A stretch of DNA of 64,000 bases from a virus (lineage: Duplodnaviria; Caudoviricetes). The notes beneath the pieces are model-generated. The model made no database searches and was not told the origin of the DNA. It was given only the letters and a program-made list of their open reading frames with translations. The DNA lies in IMG/VR virus record IMGVR_UViG_3300013121_000013, positions 64,001 through 128,000 of that record, one strand, 5' to 3'. The position numbers and the translations under genes are program-made. Positions 21,111-49,171 of the stretch are shown here, one piece after another; the first letter of the stretch is position 1; every line of letters starts with the position of its first letter.

Positions 21111-22085
21111 ATGAATAGACAAATTCTTTTTGAAAATAGAAGAGCCATTGGGGACGCTATAGTTCTAAGCGCAGCTATTAGAGATTTTAAATTTTCGTAT
21201 CCAGATATAGATATTTGCGTAAGTACAGAATATCCTGAATTGTGGATCAATAATCCGCATATAAAAAATCTTACAGCACCAGTTGAAAGGGTTGGACTTT
21301 TTGTAAACTCGTATGTAAGAGCTTCGCAGAATAGATCAATCAAAATTCACTATATTCAAGTCTTCCATAAAGTTATAAAAGATCTTATAGGTTTAAAGGT
21401 CGATTGTTTAATTCCAAAACCAGATTTGCATCTTAGTAATGACGAGATAGAAAATAGAATTCTAAATTACCCGTACTGGGTTATAGTTGCTGGCACTAAG
21501 AGGCACGCAACAACTAAACAATGGCATTTCAATAGATATCAGCAAGTTGTAAATATACTATCAAAAGAAGACAATTTGAAGTTTGTACAAGTAGGAACCA
21601 CCAAGGATAACGTATCATCAGTCAAGCACATACATCCAAAATTATCTGGCGTGGTAGATTTAGTAGATAAAACTAATCTTAGGCAGTTAATGAGTTTAAT
21701 ATATAATTCTAGTGGCGTAATTTGCCCAATCACTTCGTCCATGCACATTGCTGCAGCTTTTGATAAACCGTGCGTAGTGCTAGCAGGCGGTAGAGAAGAA
21801 TATACTTGGAGCGCGTACTCTAAAGATAACGATGCTTTTAATATTAGCCAAAAGAATAATATTATAGTTTCACACAGGTATCTAAACACTATAGGAAAGC
21901 TCCAGTGCTGTCGTAATAGTGGTTGCTGGAAAAGTCATGTTGAGGCTGAAGGTACGTATCCGTTTACACCATCATTGAAGACTTTATGCCCTTTACCTAT
22001 AAAGTCTGAGCCGATGACTGTACCTAAGTGCTTGGATCTAATATCCGTGACAGACGTGGTAGAGGCTGTTAGAAGTTATTACTAG
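21111..22085 (+). CDS. Glycosyltransferase family 9 (ADP-heptose-dependent heptosyltransferase-like)
   Basis: AIGDAI, WINNPHI, KQW, DLVDKTNLRQL, SSMHIAAAFDKPCVVL motifs; Cys-rich C-terminus CC..GCW...CP...C. Confidence 0.85.
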   Translation: MNRQILFENRRAIGDAIVLSAAIRDFKFSYPDIDICVSTEYPELWINNPHIKNLTAPVERVGLFVNSYVRASQNRSIKIHYIQVFHKVIKDLIGLKVDCLIPKPDLHLSNDEIENRILNYPYWVIVAGTKRHATTKQWHFNRYQQVVNILSKEDNLKFVQVGTTKDNVSSVKHIHPKLSGVVDLVDKTNLRQLMSLIYNSSGVICPITSSMHIAAAFDKPCVVLAGGREEYTWSAYSKDNDAFNISQKNNIIVSHRYLNTIGKLQCCRNSGCWKSHVEAEGTYPFTPSLKTLCPLPIKSEPMTVPKCLDLISVTDVVEAVRSYY

Positions 22086-22104
22086 TTGTGTCTGGAGTTC
22101 ATAT

Positions 22105-22509
22105 ATGGCAAATCCAAATAGAAGAATAAAACTAACAAGGACAGCTCAAGTTGCGAACTTAAGCATGCCTTCGTTTACATATACTGTCACTTCAAGTGAC
22201 GGCAATCTAATGGAGAATGATATATTTGTTTTTAGAAAGATCGTTACTAATAATTTGACAAACGAAACTCAAGATTTTTTTGATAGAGTAGCGTCTATAG
22301 TAGATTTAAGCAATGTCCCTATTGGCGCTCCTAACGAAGGAGAAGAAGAATTTAGAGGCTCTTCATTTACTATTTCATTTGATAATCAATCTCTTGGAGA
22401 TGAAGTTTGGAGTGCAATACAATCTGGAGCTAGAGATTTAAAAAGAGCCCTTGATGCAAGTGAGAATCTTGGAGCCGCAGAGGAAGTTTGGGTCGGTATC
22501 GAGCCTTAA
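22105..22509 (+). CDS. Hypothetical protein
   Basis: 134 aa, GGAG RBS. Confidence 0.5.
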   Translation: MANPNRRIKLTRTAQVANLSMPSFTYTVTSSDGNLMENDIFVFRKIVTNNLTNETQDFFDRVASIVDLSNVPIGAPNEGEEEFRGSSFTISFDNQSLGDEVWSAIQSGARDLKRALDASENLGAAEEVWVGIEP

Positions 22510-22530
22510 TATATAAAGGAGTTCTCTACA

Positions 22531-22797
22531 TTGACTACTATTACAAATACTATTTTATTGCAACTTTCGTCTAACTTAGCCTATGTTAGGGAGTTTCCTT
22601 TTTTGAAGATTAGACAAAGCCCAGTGGCCAGCTGCTGTAGTCAGCAAGCTTCTAGGAATATAGATTTTAATAATGCAAAGGTTAAAATTGCTAGCCTATC
22701 AGGCGATAGGCTTAAAAGATTTAAAGAGATAGTAGGAGCTGATGAAATCAAAGTATTGTATAAAAATGGTAATAAAGTTCTAACTAAACTGCTCTAA
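22531..22797 (+). CDS. Hypothetical protein
   Basis: 88 aa, AAGGAG RBS before a TTG start. Confidence 0.45.
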   Translation: MTTITNTILLQLSSNLAYVREFPFLKIRQSPVASCCSQQASRNIDFNNAKVKIASLSGDRLKRFKEIVGADEIKVLYKNGNKVLTKLL

Positions 22798-22813
22798 ATC
22801 AGAGCACGAAATC

Positions 22814-47339: not shown

Positions 47340-47392
47340 AGTTATAGTTATATTTAACTAAATTGTCATAATATTAAGTCCTGTATGTTTTT

Positions 47393-47641
47393 ATGTCTAT
47401 TATTGGAGACTACATAACTATGCCGTCGAATAAGCCTTCGAATAAAAAGCCACTAGAAGATCAATATCCGAATGGCGGGCCCAGAATATGTTTGAAGTGC
47501 GATATAGAGTTTTTTTCTATAGATATCGTTAGAAATAGAATATGCAAACAGTGTAATAAAGAAAATTCACTTTCTAAGGTTTCAAGTGTGTTTCGTCTAT
47601 CTGAAGAGGTTTCTTCATTCTTCTCTAGCGAAGAGTTTTGA
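47393..47641 (+). CDS. Small zinc-finger protein
   Basis: RICLKC..F.S...NRICKQC. Confidence 0.55.
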   Translation: MSIIGDYITMPSNKPSNKKPLEDQYPNGGPRICLKCDIEFFSIDIVRNRICKQCNKENSLSKVSSVFRLSEEVSSFFSSEEF

Positions 47642-47655
47642 TAGACGTCAATCAA
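47638..47655. promoter_or_regulatory. 18-bp palindrome variant TTGATAGACGTCAATCAA
   Basis: one mismatch; overlaps a TGA stop, just upstream of hldE. Confidence 0.55.
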
Positions 47656-47668
47656 ATTAAAGGCAGTA

Positions 47669-49171
47669 ATGAGACGACCAAGAATACTAGTAATGGGCGA
47701 CGCTATGCTAGATGTTTACAAGCATTGCGTCGGAGCGAGGGTATCGCCAGAATCGCCATCTCTTATTGGAAGACTTCAGAGAACATCCTATTTTCCTGGA
47801 GGCGCAGCCAATGTGGCTTCTAACCTGGCAACTTTAGGTGCAAGAGTTCAGTTTATATACGTCTGTCAAAGTGGCGAATCTAATACACTTCTTCAAAATT
47901 CATTTCCTTATTCTCCCGAACCTGTTCGGTTTACAAATATAGAGCCTCCCGTAAATACCGCACTTATTAGAAAGACTAGATTTGTTATTTCTGACAAGCA
48001 AGTCTTTAGAGAAGATCTAGAGCCAGCATCGGTCAGCGATTTATATTTTCAAAAAAAATTCTATCAAAAAGTTATAGGGGTGTTCGGAGAGGCTGTTAGA
48101 GAATTTGATCCAGATTGTGTGGTCTTATCCGATTATTTAAAAGGATGTCTAGTAGCGCCAGAAACAACTCACTACATCTCTCAGAGAGGTGGACTTGTAT
48201 TTGTTGATACTAAAGACAAGGACTGGAGAAGGTTTACAGGGGCTTTTTGTATCAAAGTAAATCAGTTTGAATTTGCTAATGTTAATCAGTATACATTTGA
48301 AGATGCCAAAATAGATGAAAGAGCTGTTCTGAGAAGATTCAGACTTGGCAATATAGTAGTAACAAGAGGCGAAGAAGGAATGTCTTGGTATGGAAGTGAT
48401 ATACAGGAAATGCATCTTAAACCGGAACATACAAATCAGGCAGTAGATGTAACAGGGGCTGGAGATACAGTCCTAGCTGCTTTGGCGTACAGGCAAGCTA
48501 TGCACTCTATGGAAAAGGGTGTAGAGACTGGTTCAAGAAATCTGCCATTCCAAGAAGACACTTTAAAGTTTGCATCTGTTGCTGCAGGCATTGCTGTTAG
48601 TCATCCTGGCACAACCTCTGTTTATGGGGTAGAAGTATTAACAAAGTTTCGAGGTACAGACGGTAAGATTTTTAGAGAGGATAGTGACTCTATAGTTGAT
48701 CTTAATAGTCTCATAAGGTGCTGGAAGTCTCGGAACTATACTATAGCATTTACCAATGGTTGTTTTGATCTGTTCCATACAGGCCATATGAATATTATAA
48801 ACAAGTGTTCAGACCTTGCGGATAAAGTTGTGGTTGCCATAAACAATGACGAATCTATCTCTTCGTTAAAAGGGTCAACGAGACCTATTGTTGATGAGGT
48901 GGAAAGAGCTCGATTGCTTGCCGCTATGGAGGTTGTAGACGCTGTTATTATTTTTAATAGCGTGTCTCCTTTAAAGATGATCGAGTTGGTTTCTCCTGAC
49001 TTCCTAGTAAAGGGAGATGATTATAGAGAATCTGACATTATTGGGTCCAGTTATGTTAGAGATAGAGGAGGGAAAGTGGTTATTATTCCAAGAGTCAGTA
49101 ATAACTCAACTACTGGAATTATTTCAAAAGTCTTTAATAACCATAGTAAGAATTTAGAAGGAACAAGATAG
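47669..49171 (+). CDS. hldE: Bifunctional heptose-7-phosphate kinase / heptose-1-phosphate adenylyltransferase
   Basis: PfkB domain (GDAMLD, RVSPESP, GGAANVA, LSDY.KG, DVTGAGDT) fused to a nucleotidyltransferase (FTNGCFDLFHTGH, KG..RP, KGDDY, STT). Confidence 0.92.
   Translation: MRRPRILVMGDAMLDVYKHCVGARVSPESPSLIGRLQRTSYFPGGAANVASNLATLGARVQFIYVCQSGESNTLLQNSFPYSPEPVRFTNIEPPVNTALIRKTRFVISDKQVFREDLEPASVSDLYFQKKFYQKVIGVFGEAVREFDPDCVVLSDYLKGCLVAPETTHYISQRGGLVFVDTKDKDWRRFTGAFCIKVNQFEFANVNQYTFEDAKIDERAVLRRFRLGNIVVTRGEEGMSWYGSDIQEMHLKPEHTNQAVDVTGAGDTVLAALAYRQAMHSMEKGVETGSRNLPFQEDTLKFASVAAGIAVSHPGTTSVYGVEVLTKFRGTDGKIFREDSDSIVDLNSLIRCWKSRNYTIAFTNGCFDLFHTGHMNIINKCSDLADKVVVAINNDESISSLKGSTRPIVDEVERARLLAAMEVVDAVIIFNSVSPLKMIELVSPDFLVKGDDYRESDIIGSSYVRDRGGKVVIIPRVSNNSTTGIISKVFNNHSKNLEGTR

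What the first reader, a model, noticed from the sequence alone, without database searches (positions are those of the whole stretch)
21111..49171. Phage-encoded ADP-heptose supply (HldE) plus a Cys-finger GT9 next to the tail fibre: candidate virion heptosylation system
Seen: full bifunctional hldE (47669..49171), a GT9 directly after the fibre genes, and a sugar-isomerase-like cupin (57860..58315). The fibre operon and hldE are both preceded by the same palindrome. Known: HldE makes ADP-heptose, GT9 enzymes use it, and AAH/TibC protein heptosyltransferases carry a C-terminal Cys iron finger. The CC..GCW...CP...C tail here resembles that finger. Inference: the phage heptosylates Ser/Thr-rich virion proteins (the fibre C-terminus, the tail of 4373..5188) or remodels host LPS. 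GmhA and GmhB are not in this window.
Basis: partly seen in the sequence, partly recalled or inferred. Interest (0 to 1): 0.75.

Follow-up and report, generated by a model that had tools for sequence, protein, structure and literature searches.

The report
Phage heptose-adding enzyme set beside tail fibre
A large uncultured phage carries an ADP-heptose-making enzyme and, right after its tail-fibre genes, a sugar-transferring enzyme with the same four-cysteine metal finger as bacterial enzymes that put heptose on adhesin proteins; across related phages the two genes travel together, so they probably form one glycosylation system whose target is still unknown.

Summary
The observation largely holds. 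21111-22085 encodes a GT9-fold glycosyltransferase in the tail-fibre operon, and 47669-49171 encodes a full-length HldE homologue.

New here:
- The GT9 belongs to a large unnamed subfamily (124 IMG/VR contigs, at least 587 bacterial places). Its conserved Cys motif aligns residue for residue with three of TibC's four iron-finger cysteines.
- It lacks TibC's beta-barrel and thumb, so it is not a BAHT member.
- In about half of the relatives it is fused to, or followed by, a GT-A glycosyltransferase. This phage encodes that partner about 53 kb away, outside the window.
- In 32 records of this lineage, HldE occurs only where the GT9 occurs (11/3/0/18).
- One unrelated phage has a single cluster: fibres, Cys-GT9, GT4, GT2, methyltransferases, HldD-like, HldE.

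ADP-heptose is therefore the likely donor.

The acceptor is unresolved. I favour a virion (distal tail) protein over host LPS.

Not supported:
- The cupin as a sugar isomerase.
- The palindrome as a specific link; it has 13 copies in the genome.
- The Ser/Thr tail of 4373-5188 as a conserved acceptor.

Another first-stage note in this scan had flagged the same gene.

The parts
18174..18191 (.). 18-bp palindrome TTGATAGATATCTATCAA, 14 nt before the fibre gene. It is a copy of a genome-wide gene-junction signal and marks the start of the fibre-GT9 gene string.
   Evidence: perfect copy; 5 in the window against 0.1 expected by chance; 13 in the genome.
18205..20634 (+). Tail fibre, 809 aa. Two GPQ-type collagen tracts flank a BclA_C/TNF(C1q)-like domain. 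A Ser/Thr-rich C-terminal part follows, containing a duplicated motif of about 45 aa. It is a candidate acceptor but not a proven one.
   Evidence: Pfam Collagen 3.9e-30 and BclA_C 4.6e-5; PHROG tail-fibre families; composition, with a maximum 40-aa Ser+Thr window of 0.40.
20637..21107 (+). 156-aa ORF of unknown function between the fibre gene and the GT9, with 2-bp and 3-bp gaps to its neighbours.
   Evidence: No Pfam, NCBIfam or PHROG match. No homologue in the 80 related loci.
21111..22085 (+). Cys-finger GT9 glycosyltransferase, the predicted ADP-heptose-dependent transferase. Catalytic Asp15 lies in a GD motif, Lys136 is the predicted phosphate binder, and the metal-finger cysteines are C266/C267, C272, C293 and C307.
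   Evidence: PF01075. AF2 pLDDT 95.7. VIA Z 23.8/21.0/20.6/19.7 to 3TOV, WaaF, TibC and WaaC, against 11 for other GT-B folds. hhalign to TibC through the finger. Conservation.
47638..47655 (.). Degenerate copy (3 mismatches) of the same junction palindrome, 14 nt before hldE.
47669..49171 (+). HldE homologue: a heptose-7-phosphate kinase (PfkB) domain fused to a heptose-1-phosphate adenylyltransferase domain. It is the predicted supplier of ADP-heptose. The host must provide the GmhA and GmhB steps.
   Evidence: Found only in GT9-bearing relatives.
4373..5188 (+). Core structural-module protein. Its N-terminal 155 aa are conserved in 30 of 32 relatives. It carries a 116-aa Ser/Thr/Pro-rich tail found only in this phage, so it may be a local acceptor but is not the conserved one.

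Best explanation
The phage encodes a three-part heptose glycosylation set.

1. HldE (47669-49171) phosphorylates host-made D-glycero-D-manno-heptose 7-phosphate at C1. After the host GmhB phosphatase step, it adenylylates heptose 1-phosphate, which raises the ADP-heptose pool.
2. The Cys-finger GT9 (21111-22085) is expressed with the tail-fibre genes. It uses ADP-heptose, with Asp15 as the base, to put heptose on an acceptor.
3. A GT-A glycosyltransferase lies at genome position 138543-139334, outside the window. In most relatives it is fused to the GT9. It adds the next sugar.

The acceptor is most likely a protein of the distal tail or fibre module, glycosylated in the cytoplasm before assembly. 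The four-cysteine metal finger would serve, as in TibC, for protein-substrate binding or oligomerisation.

Shown: the folds, the motifs, the fusion, the gene linkage and the co-occurrence.
Inferred: the donor sugar (strongly supported) and the acceptor class (weakly supported).
For: GT9 identity:
- establish the family and fold.
- GD(15), K136 and H212 align with WaaC D13/K192/H266 and with TibC D110/K230/W305 (residue roles from PMC4358343).

Finger:
- hhalign against TibC gives E 2.2e-6 over 192 columns and extends through residues 233-322. It places GCW on GCW, L.CP on L.CP and C..LI on C..LI.
- hhalign against WaaF and WaaC stops at residues 230-233.

Donor:
- In 32 lineage records the counts are HldE+GT9+ 11, GT9 only 3, HldE only 0, neither 18. 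Fisher p is 3e-6 overall and 0.002 for records at least 90% complete.
- All informative independent contrasts go the same way.
- Locus L066 carries, in one co-directional string, fibres, Cys-GT9, GT4, GT2, two methyltransferases, an HldD-like gene (TIGR02197, 221.7 bits) and HldE.
- In Singulisphaera, a second HldE copy lies about 9 kb from a Cys-GT9.

Partner:
- 35 of 80 loci have the GT9 fused to the GT-A domain, and others have it as the next gene.
- The partner has a GT-A fold (Z about 16) and a DDD motif.

Protein rather than lipid A acceptor:
- The N-lobe net charge is 0 (family median 0), against +8 for WaaC, +5 for WaaF and +1 for TibC.
- The gene keeps a conserved position at the end of the fibre module in phages, and bacterial copies lie next to eCIS_core/DUF6519 and RHS proteins.
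- The L066 island shows no flippase or initiating transferase among its annotated genes.
Against: - No acceptor is identified.
- GT9-less relatives keep the same collagen fibres and the same synteny, with the slot simply empty.
- The Ser/Thr tail of 4373-5188 is unique to this phage.
- The finger region taken alone aligns to TibC only weakly: score 16.2, E 0.063. One of 100 Cys-preserving shuffles scored higher, 16.7.
- 11 of 19 near-complete GT9-bearing phages lack HldE.
- Cyanophage HldE-like genes occur without this GT9.
- HldE and all LPS heptosyltransferase models score below their equivalog cut-offs, so specificity is inferred.
- Co-occurrence rests on few independent events: GT9 changes 4 times and HldE 6 times on the marker tree.
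- The published reading of phage rfaE and glycosyltransferase clusters next to fibres is host-surface modification (PMC7029224, PMC7824862).
Confidence: 0.5

Rival explanations
1. Host envelope remodelling. The GT9 and its GT-A partner add heptose and a second sugar to the host's LPS core or another envelope glycan during infection. This would mask the receptor, giving superinfection exclusion or keeping progeny from sticking to debris. The genes sit next to the receptor-binding genes because the two co-evolve. HldE feeds this reaction.
For: - All characterised non-BAHT GT9 enzymes are LPS-core heptosyltransferases (established knowledge).
- The family profile is closest in sequence to WaaF: hmmsearch E 6.6e-10 and hhalign E 2.5e-9.
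- The literature reads rfaE and glycosyltransferases in phage host-recognition clusters this way (PMC7029224, PMC7824862).
- GT9-bearing phages carry extra variable fibre-like genes that arrive together with the GT9, as expected for a receptor-binding-protein plus receptor-masking cassette.
- Candidate planctomycete hosts have GmhA-like and HldE genes.
Against: - The N-lobe lacks the basic charge of WaaC and WaaF.
- The family carries the BAHT-type finger, which the WaaC and WaaF alignments do not reach.
- Scores against WaaC, WaaF and WaaQ equivalogs are 35-43 bits, against cut-offs of 134-467.
- The bacterial contexts that recurred (clusters shared by three or more of the 80 loci) are not LPS-core clusters.
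Confidence: 0.3
2. No joint system. HldE is a general auxiliary metabolic gene, and the GT9 uses another nucleotide sugar or acts on an unrelated target such as a host protein or a defence factor. The co-occurrence would reflect shared ancestry of an accessory gene pool.
For: - The two genes lie 26 kb apart here, in different modules.
- There are few independent contrasts.
- Many GT9-bearing phages lack HldE.
- The WaaC/WaaF Asp of the D-[ST]-G sugar-binding motif is not conserved; it reads P-I-T here.
Against: - HldE is never found without the GT9 in 18 GT9-less relatives.
- GT9, HldD-like and HldE are physically clustered in L066.
- TibC also lacks that Asp and has Pro300 there, yet it uses ADP-heptose (PMC4358343).
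Confidence: 0.12
3. DNA glycosylation. The GT-B enzyme puts a sugar on a modified base of phage DNA, as the T4 glucosyltransferases do.
For: - T4 DNA glucosyltransferases have the GT-B fold (established knowledge).
- hldE lies among nucleotide-metabolism genes, next to thyX at 49531-50343.
Against: - No ThyA-type hydroxymethylase is present in the contig, and thyX implies ordinary thymine.
- The GT9 sits in the late structural module in every syntenic relative.
- The structural neighbours are GT9 enzymes only, with Z falling from about 20 to 11.
Confidence: 0.03

Closest known systems
TibC / AAH bacterial autotransporter heptosyltransferases (BAHT family; PDB 4RAP, 4RB4; PMC4358343)
   Same: - GT9-type GT-B catalytic domain (VIA Z 20.6, 253-260 residues aligned).
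- GD catalytic Asp and the Lys on the beta-phosphate.
- A four-cysteine finger inserted at the same place in the C-lobe, with GCW, L.CP and C..LI motifs aligned.
- A near-neutral acceptor lobe.
- The gene lies next to a large fibrous or beta-rich protein.
   Different: - No N-terminal beta-barrel: the model starts at TibC residue 95.
- The beta-hairpin thumb is missing (7-residue gap).
- The first Cys pair sits on a loop 6 residues longer.
- No autotransporter is nearby.
- It is often fused to a GT-A domain.
- It gave no hit to any autotransporter-heptosyltransferase NCBIfam model at E<=0.01, and the family profile does not reach TibC by hmmsearch.
- The metal and the oligomeric state are unknown.
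LPS-core heptosyltransferases WaaC, WaaF and WaaQ (GT9; PDB 2H1H, 1PSW)
   Same: - Same fold (Z 19.7-21.0).
- Best sequence-profile match is to WaaF.
- The presumed ADP-heptose donor.
   Different: - Scores far below the equivalog cut-offs.
- No basic N-lobe.
- The sugar-binding Asp (WaaC D261) is replaced.
- There is an extra Cys finger that the WaaC and WaaF alignments do not cover.
- The context is a phage fibre module, not an LPS-core operon.
Phage sugar-nucleotide and glycosyltransferase clusters in host-recognition regions of cyano- and pelagimyophages (rfaE-like kinase plus nucleotidyltransferase; PMC7029224, PMC7824862)
   Same: - Phage-encoded HldE/RfaE homologues (about 30% identity to cyanophage split forms).
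- Glycosyltransferases placed beside tail-fibre genes.
   Different: - In those phages the kinase and the transferase are separate genes. Their glycosyltransferases belong to other families, and this GT9 has no tblastn match in 50,697 phage records.
- In those papers the function is only proposed (host O-antigen or capsule), and no HldE-GT dependency was reported.
Mycobacteriophage virion glycosylation (Freeman et al. 2023, known to me only as cited in PMC12619734)
   Same: Phage-encoded glycosyltransferases that glycosylate virion proteins in the cytoplasm, on C-terminal extensions of capsid and tail-tube subunits.
   Different: - Different glycosyltransferase families, sugars and hosts.
- That case has mass-spectrometry evidence; this one has none.

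Membership tests
Glycosyltransferase family 9 (PF01075 / CAZy GT9) | Sequence match to the family model above the curated threshold | tested here: met
   PF01075 60.9 bits against a cut-off of 22, residues 78-245.
Glycosyltransferase family 9 (PF01075 / CAZy GT9) | GT-B two-lobe fold closest to solved GT9 enzymes | tested here: met
   AF2 pLDDT 95.7. Z 23.8 (rmsd 2.8, 261 aligned) to 3TOV, 21.0 to WaaF, 20.6 to TibC and 19.7 to WaaC. The next GT-B folds score Z 11.
Glycosyltransferase family 9 (PF01075 / CAZy GT9) | N-terminal G-D catalytic base and the Lys that binds the donor beta-phosphate | tested here: met
   D15 (more than 90% conserved) aligns with WaaC D13, and the motif matches TibC TLGD110. 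K136 (invariant) aligns with WaaC K192 and TibC K230.
Glycosyltransferase family 9 (PF01075 / CAZy GT9) | ADP-heptose as donor | not testable with these tools
   Indirect support only: HldE co-occurrence and the GT9...HldD-HldE cluster in L066.
BAHT (TibC/AAH autotransporter O-heptosyltransferases) | Four-cysteine iron finger inserted in the C-lobe | tested here: met
   hhalign places C272, C293 and C307 on TibC C342, C358 and C370, with C266/267 near C339. The region alone gives E 0.063 and z about 4.8 against shuffles. The metal identity was not testable.
BAHT (TibC/AAH autotransporter O-heptosyltransferases) | N-terminal beta-barrel domain (TibC residues 1-97) | tested here: not met
   The protein is 324 aa. 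Model residues 1-324 align to TibC 93/95-387.
BAHT (TibC/AAH autotransporter O-heptosyltransferases) | Beta-hairpin thumb that builds the dodecamer | tested here: not met
   There is a 7-residue gap opposite the TibC thumb segment in hhalign.
BAHT (TibC/AAH autotransporter O-heptosyltransferases) | Gene paired with an autotransporter substrate | tested here: not met
   The neighbours are a collagen-like tail fibre and phage structural genes.
LPS heptosyltransferase I/II/III (WaaC/WaaF/WaaQ equivalogs) | Score above the NCBIfam equivalog cut-off | tested here: not met
   35-43 bits against cut-offs of 134.6-467. Only the C-lobe is matched.
LPS heptosyltransferase I/II/III (WaaC/WaaF/WaaQ equivalogs) | Basic acceptor (N-terminal) lobe for the anionic Kdo2-lipid A | tested here: not met
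   Net charge 0, pI 6.9 (family median 0 and 7.5), against +8/pI 10.0 for WaaC and +5/pI 9.5 for WaaF. This is a crude proxy.
HldE (bifunctional heptose-7-P kinase / heptose-1-P adenylyltransferase) | Both domains in the HldE order, aligned over the full length | tested here: met
   NF008454 residues 3-490 on model 10-473/475; rfaE_dom_I 182 bits and rfaE_dom_II 154 bits.
HldE (bifunctional heptose-7-P kinase / heptose-1-P adenylyltransferase) | Score above the equivalog cut-off | tested here: not met
   311.9 bits against 521; the domain models score 182 against 345 and 154 against 181.5. It is a divergent homologue, and its substrate is inferred.
HldE (bifunctional heptose-7-P kinase / heptose-1-P adenylyltransferase) | PfkB anion-hole motif and the HxGH nucleotidyltransferase motif | tested here: met
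   GAGDT and FHTGH are aligned with HldA 4E84 and HldC 5X9Q.
GT-A / GT2-like glycosyltransferase (partner at genome 138543-139334) | GT-A fold with a DxD motif | tested here: met
   AF2 pLDDT 88.4. Z 14-16 to many GT2 and GT27 enzymes. D113-D114 are invariant and D115 is more than 90% conserved.
GT-A / GT2-like glycosyltransferase (partner at genome 138543-139334) | Pfam GT2 match above threshold | tested here: inconclusive
   PF00535 21.1 bits against a cut-off of 23.3.

The most novel reading that the evidence does not exclude
The Cys-finger GT9 (usually fused to a GT-A domain) would be an undescribed, widespread protein O-heptosylation system of contractile-tail machines. It would be an evolutionary sister of the autotransporter heptosyltransferases. 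It would decorate phage distal-tail or fibre proteins, and in bacteria the proteins of eCIS- and RHS-type loci, with a heptose-initiated glycan. Phages would boost the donor with their own HldE, sometimes together with HldD. This would be the first case of virion heptosylation, and a new handle on how uncultured phages of Planctomycetota, Verrucomicrobiota and relatives tune adsorption or evade recognition.
Probability: 0.35. Interest if true: 0.8.

Novelty: new variant of a known kind. Interest (0 to 1): 0.6.

Why it matters
Protein O-heptosylation is so far known only for autotransporter adhesins of Proteobacteria. Phage virion glycosylation has been demonstrated only in a few actinobacteriophages.

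A TibC-type finger in a GT9 subfamily that sits in phage fibre modules would extend that chemistry well beyond its known range. The subfamily is in 124 viral contigs and hundreds of bacterial places across several phyla.

It would also give a concrete reading of phage-borne rfaE/hldE genes, which are usually filed as 'LPS AMGs'. The strict HldE-only-with-GT9 pattern supports that reading, and the idea can be tested by expression in E. coli.

If the target turns out to be host LPS instead, the set would be a receptor-masking cassette that travels with receptor-binding genes. That is less new but still useful for understanding host range.

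Tried and rejected
I obtained gene contexts through the search for related loci and the fetch from genomes instead.
It contained a typed protein that a script had printed from the genome outside the window (sent; nothing was run). I then fetched that stretch as locus L082 with the fetch from genomes and used references only.
- tblastn of the GT9 against 50,697 phage records gave no match.
- The HldE single-protein scan of viral contigs found nothing. 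A marker alignment was too divergent and had to be narrowed.
- gmhA is absent from 30 of 31 GT9-bearing relatives. This phage has no HldD; its only SDR is RmlB-like.
- Cupin as a GmhA substitute: rejected on co-occurrence.
- Ser/Thr tail of 4373-5188 as the conserved acceptor: rejected.
- Collagen fibre as an obligate partner: rejected, because GT9-less relatives keep it.
- HldE adjacency in 80 bacterial loci within 8 kb either side: none found.
- Sigma-70 promoter and terminator scans of the fibre-GT9 string were uninformative.
- Neighbours of the GT-A partner carry no further sugar genes.
- Literature searches found no paper on a phage GT9 or heptosyltransferase, or on virion heptosylation.
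- A GT9 phylogeny against WaaC, WaaF and TibC was not attempted. Sequence identity of 10-19% would not give a reliable tree, so I used pairwise hhalign and the shared insertion instead.

Full report
**Setting**

The window is bases 64001-128000 of a 155,646-bp IMG/VR viral contig that CheckV rates 76% complete. Nearly all genes lie on the + strand. The terminase is distantly related to those of Salmonella phage Arash and some Vibrio phages. That fits earlier notes of this scan, which place the contig among large phages that encode their own RNA polymerase and suggest a planctomycete host.

**The two named genes**

Window 47669-49171 encodes a 500-aa protein with a PfkB kinase domain and a cytidylyltransferase-like domain.
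- It aligns end to end with the bifunctional HldE model (311.9 bits, below the 521-bit equivalog cut-off) and with both rfaE domain models.
- Its best solved relatives are the heptose kinase HldA (4E84, E 4.7e-25) and the adenylyltransferase HldC (5X9Q, E 7.2e-25). The GAGDT and HxGH motifs are in place.

Window 21111-22085 encodes a 324-aa GT9 (PF01075, 60.9 bits).
- It scores far below the WaaC, WaaF and WaaQ equivalog cut-offs.
- It follows the 809-aa collagen-like fibre gene (collagen repeats plus a BclA_C/TNF-like domain) and a 156-aa ORF, with gaps of 2-3 bp.

**Fold of the GT9**

A model built on 82 homologues has a mean pLDDT of 95.7. VIA-align gives:
- Z 23.8 to the Veillonella GT9 3TOV
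- Z 21.0 to WaaF
- Z 20.6 to the catalytic domain of TibC (residues 93/95-387)
- Z 19.7 to WaaC
- Z about 11 for other GT-B enzymes

The enzyme is a GT9. Fold alone does not place it with either the LPS branch or the autotransporter branch.

**The cysteine finger**

C272, C293 and C307 are invariant in the 26-sequence alignment and conserved in at least 90% of 82 sequences. C266, C267, G271 and W273 are also conserved in at least 90%. In TibC, Cys339, 342, 358 and 370 bind a ferric ion in an insertion of the C-lobe. That finger is needed for dimerisation, substrate binding and activity (PMC4358343).

I fetched tibC from E. coli H10407 and compared it with the family profile.
- hhalign gives 89% probability and E 2.2e-6 over 192 columns (phage 84-322, TibC 186-385).
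- It aligns SGCW with YGCW (C272 on C342), TLCP with LWCP (C293 on C358) and KCLDLI with ECTRLI (C307 on C370).
- C266/267 lie on a loop six residues longer than the one before TibC C339.
- The same comparison with WaaF (E 2.5e-9) and WaaC (E 1e-5) ends at residues 230-233, before the finger.
- The finger region taken alone finds TibC in the same register but only weakly: score 16.2, E 0.063. One hundred cysteine-preserving shuffles had a mean of 11.4, an sd of 1.0 and a maximum of 16.7.

I read the finger as probably homologous to the BAHT finger. The phage enzyme has neither the N-terminal beta-barrel nor the beta-hairpin thumb of TibC. Its gene has no autotransporter neighbour. It is therefore not a BAHT member.

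**Donor-site residues**

- The GD motif (D15) matches WaaC D13 and TibC D110.
- K136 matches WaaC K192 and TibC K230.
- H212 matches WaaC H266 and TibC W305.
- The WaaC/WaaF Asp of the D-[ST]-G motif is absent (PIT here). TibC has Pro300 at that place and still uses ADP-heptose (PMC4358343).

**How widespread the family is**

The family has 130 hits among protein clusters, 124 IMG/VR contigs and at least 587 places in bacterial genomes and MAGs. The bacterial hits are mainly Planctomycetota and Verrucomicrobiota, with other phyla also represented. It has no match in 50,697 deposited phage genomes.

**A second glycosyltransferase**

- In 35 of 80 viral loci the GT9 is fused at its C-terminus to a domain homologous to a separate gene of this phage, at genome position 138543-139334, about 53 kb downstream and outside the window.
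- In other loci that domain, or a GT4-type enzyme (in one locus fused to a methyltransferase), is the next gene.
- The domain has a GT-A fold (pLDDT 88.4; Z 14-16 to many GT2 and GT27 enzymes) with a conserved DDD motif.
- The fusion argues that the two enzymes build one glycan.

**Position in the genome**

In the syntenic relatives the gene order is: baseplate genes, a long collagen-like fibre, variable fibre-like genes, the GT9 (often fused to GT-A), two small conserved genes, and further on the homologue of window 23804-24517. GT9-less relatives keep the whole order, including the collagen fibre. They lack both the GT9 and the variable genes before it. The GT9 is thus an accessory cassette at the distal end of the fibre module.

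**Link to HldE**

I used the homologue of 23804-24517 as a lineage marker and searched 32 large records for both genes.

| | HldE present | HldE absent |
|---|---|---|
| GT9 present | 11 | 3 |
| GT9 absent | 0 | 18 |

- Fisher p is 2.8e-6 overall, 9.5e-6 with duplicates removed, and 0.002 for the 17 records that are at least 90% complete.
- On the marker tree the GT9 changes at least 4 times and HldE at least 6 times. All informative independent pairs go the same way, but there are too few for a sign test.
- Among 50 GT9-bearing records of all lineages, 20 have an HldE homologue, including 8 of the 19 near-complete ones.

This asymmetry is what a donor-boosting accessory gene would show: HldE is never found without the GT9, while the GT9 is often found without HldE.

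Two independent observations point the same way.
- Locus L066 comes from a phage that lacks the synteny genes of this lineage around its GT9. It carries one co-directional string: a collagen fibre, a Gly-rich fibre, the Cys-GT9, GT4, GT2, two methyltransferases, an SDR whose best match is ADP-glyceromanno-heptose 6-epimerase (TIGR02197, 221.7 bits, full length), and HldE.
- In the planctomycete Singulisphaera, one of two HldE copies lies about 9 kb from a Cys-GT9.

**Pathway gaps**

- The contig has no GmhA-type SIS and no GmhB-type HAD gene.
- Its only SDR is RmlB-like and not HldD.
- GT9-bearing relatives also lack gmhA.
- Planctomycete genomes that carry the Cys-GT9 have GmhA-like and HldE genes, so a host of that kind could supply the missing steps.

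**Acceptor**

This remains the open point.

For a protein acceptor:
- the BAHT-type finger
- a neutral N-lobe (net charge 0, against +8 for WaaC, +5 for WaaF and +1 for TibC)
- the constant position after fibre genes
- bacterial copies next to eCIS_core/DUF6519 proteins and RHS-repeat proteins
- no recognisable flippase or initiating transferase in the L066 island

Against any specific candidate:
- The collagen tracts are GPQ-type with no Thr.
- GT9-less relatives keep the collagen fibres.
- The Ser/Thr/Pro-rich tail of 4373-5188 is unique to this phage. Thirteen other GT9-bearing relatives have no comparable Ser/Thr-rich tail; all but one end within 14 residues of the conserved domain.

For the LPS rival:
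- the canonical GT9 function
- the closest sequence-profile match being WaaF
- the published reading of such clusters as host-surface modification (PMC7029224, PMC7824862)

- The palindrome is real, but it is a genome-wide junction signal with 13 copies. One also heads the gene string that contains the GT-A partner. At most it indicates a shared regulatory class.
- The cupin at 57860-58315 is a JmjC/'cysteine dioxygenase'-type cupin. It does not track HldE. In cyanophage P-TIM68 a gene annotated 'cysteine dioxygenase' (the label of phrog_7851, which the window cupin matches) sits inside a heptose-type cluster beside a phosphoheptose isomerase. A sugar-related role elsewhere therefore cannot be excluded.
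- DNA glycosylation is unlikely. The contig has no ThyA-type hydroxymethylase, thyX is present, and the GT9 lies in the late-module position.

**Verdict**

A linked HldE, Cys-finger GT9 and GT-A heptose glycosylation set is well supported. ADP-heptose as the donor is likely. I favour a virion protein as the acceptor but have not shown it. In the papers I could search, phage rfaE genes and glycosyltransferases beside fibre genes are described. This GT9 subfamily, its finger and its dependency pattern are not.

Noticed in passing
Genome 138543-139334 (L082:10543-11334), about 10.5 kb beyond the window's end: The GT-A partner of the GT9 is encoded separately, about 53 kb from the GT9. Most relatives have the two fused into one protein of about 640 aa. 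A copy of the junction palindrome at 136453 heads its gene string.
   Followed up: yes
Genome 145200-146237 (L083:1492-2529): An SDR whose best match is dTDP-glucose 4,6-dehydratase (TIGR01181, 212 bits, below cut-off). It is not HldD. This hints at a second, deoxy-sugar branch that might feed the GT-A partner.
   Followed up: partly
L066:5008-18983 (IMGVR_UViG_3300037851_000103): A complete glycan island directly after two fibre genes: Cys-GT9, GT4, GT2, Methyltransf_24, an FkbM-type methyltransferase, an HldD-like epimerase and HldE, with three unannotated ORFs in between.
   Followed up: yes
L130, L131, L138, L154 (Alphaproteobacteria, Rhodopila, Paraburkholderia, Steroidobacteraceae): Bacterial Cys-GT9 genes, often followed by a GT9-methyltransferase fusion, lie directly after a DUF6519 protein. 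In L131 an eCIS_core-domain protein (Pfam-checked only there) comes in between. This looks like a contractile-injection-system locus.
   Followed up: partly
L102, L108, L115, L134, L144, L157: In Verrucomicrobiota, Phycisphaerae and other MAGs the Cys-GT9 sits one or two small genes downstream of very large RHS-repeat proteins (up to 2199 aa). In other Verrucomicrobiota it follows a protein of about 1370 aa with Ser/Thr kinase and WD40 domains.
   Followed up: partly
L255 (Prochlorococcus phage P-TIM68, 168912-173051): This cyanophage cluster holds a carbohydrate kinase, two epimerases, an adenylyltransferase, a 'cysteine dioxygenase' cupin (the annotation label of phrog_7851, which window 57860-58315 matches), a phosphoheptose isomerase and a glucosyltransferase. 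The cupin may have a sugar-related role there.
   Followed up: partly
window 4373-5188 and loci L257-L286: The N-terminal 155 aa form a core protein of the lineage (30 of 32 records). C-terminal tails vary: none in most, a Ser/Thr/Pro-rich tail here, and long poly-Gly/Ala tails in two GT9-less relatives (G066, G068).
   Followed up: yes
window 19630-19950 (fibre residues about 476-580): The fibre carries a tandem duplication of a motif of about 45 aa (…[30 protein letters not shown]…) after the second collagen tract.
   Followed up: no
window 43554-43571: One degenerate palindrome copy lies inside ORF 43001-44392 and not at a gene junction.
   Followed up: no
G075 (Singulisphaera sp. PoT chromosome) 9277564-9288645: This planctomycete has two full HldE copies. 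One lies beside a gmhA-like gene, and the other lies about 9 kb from one of its two Cys-GT9 genes.
   Followed up: partly
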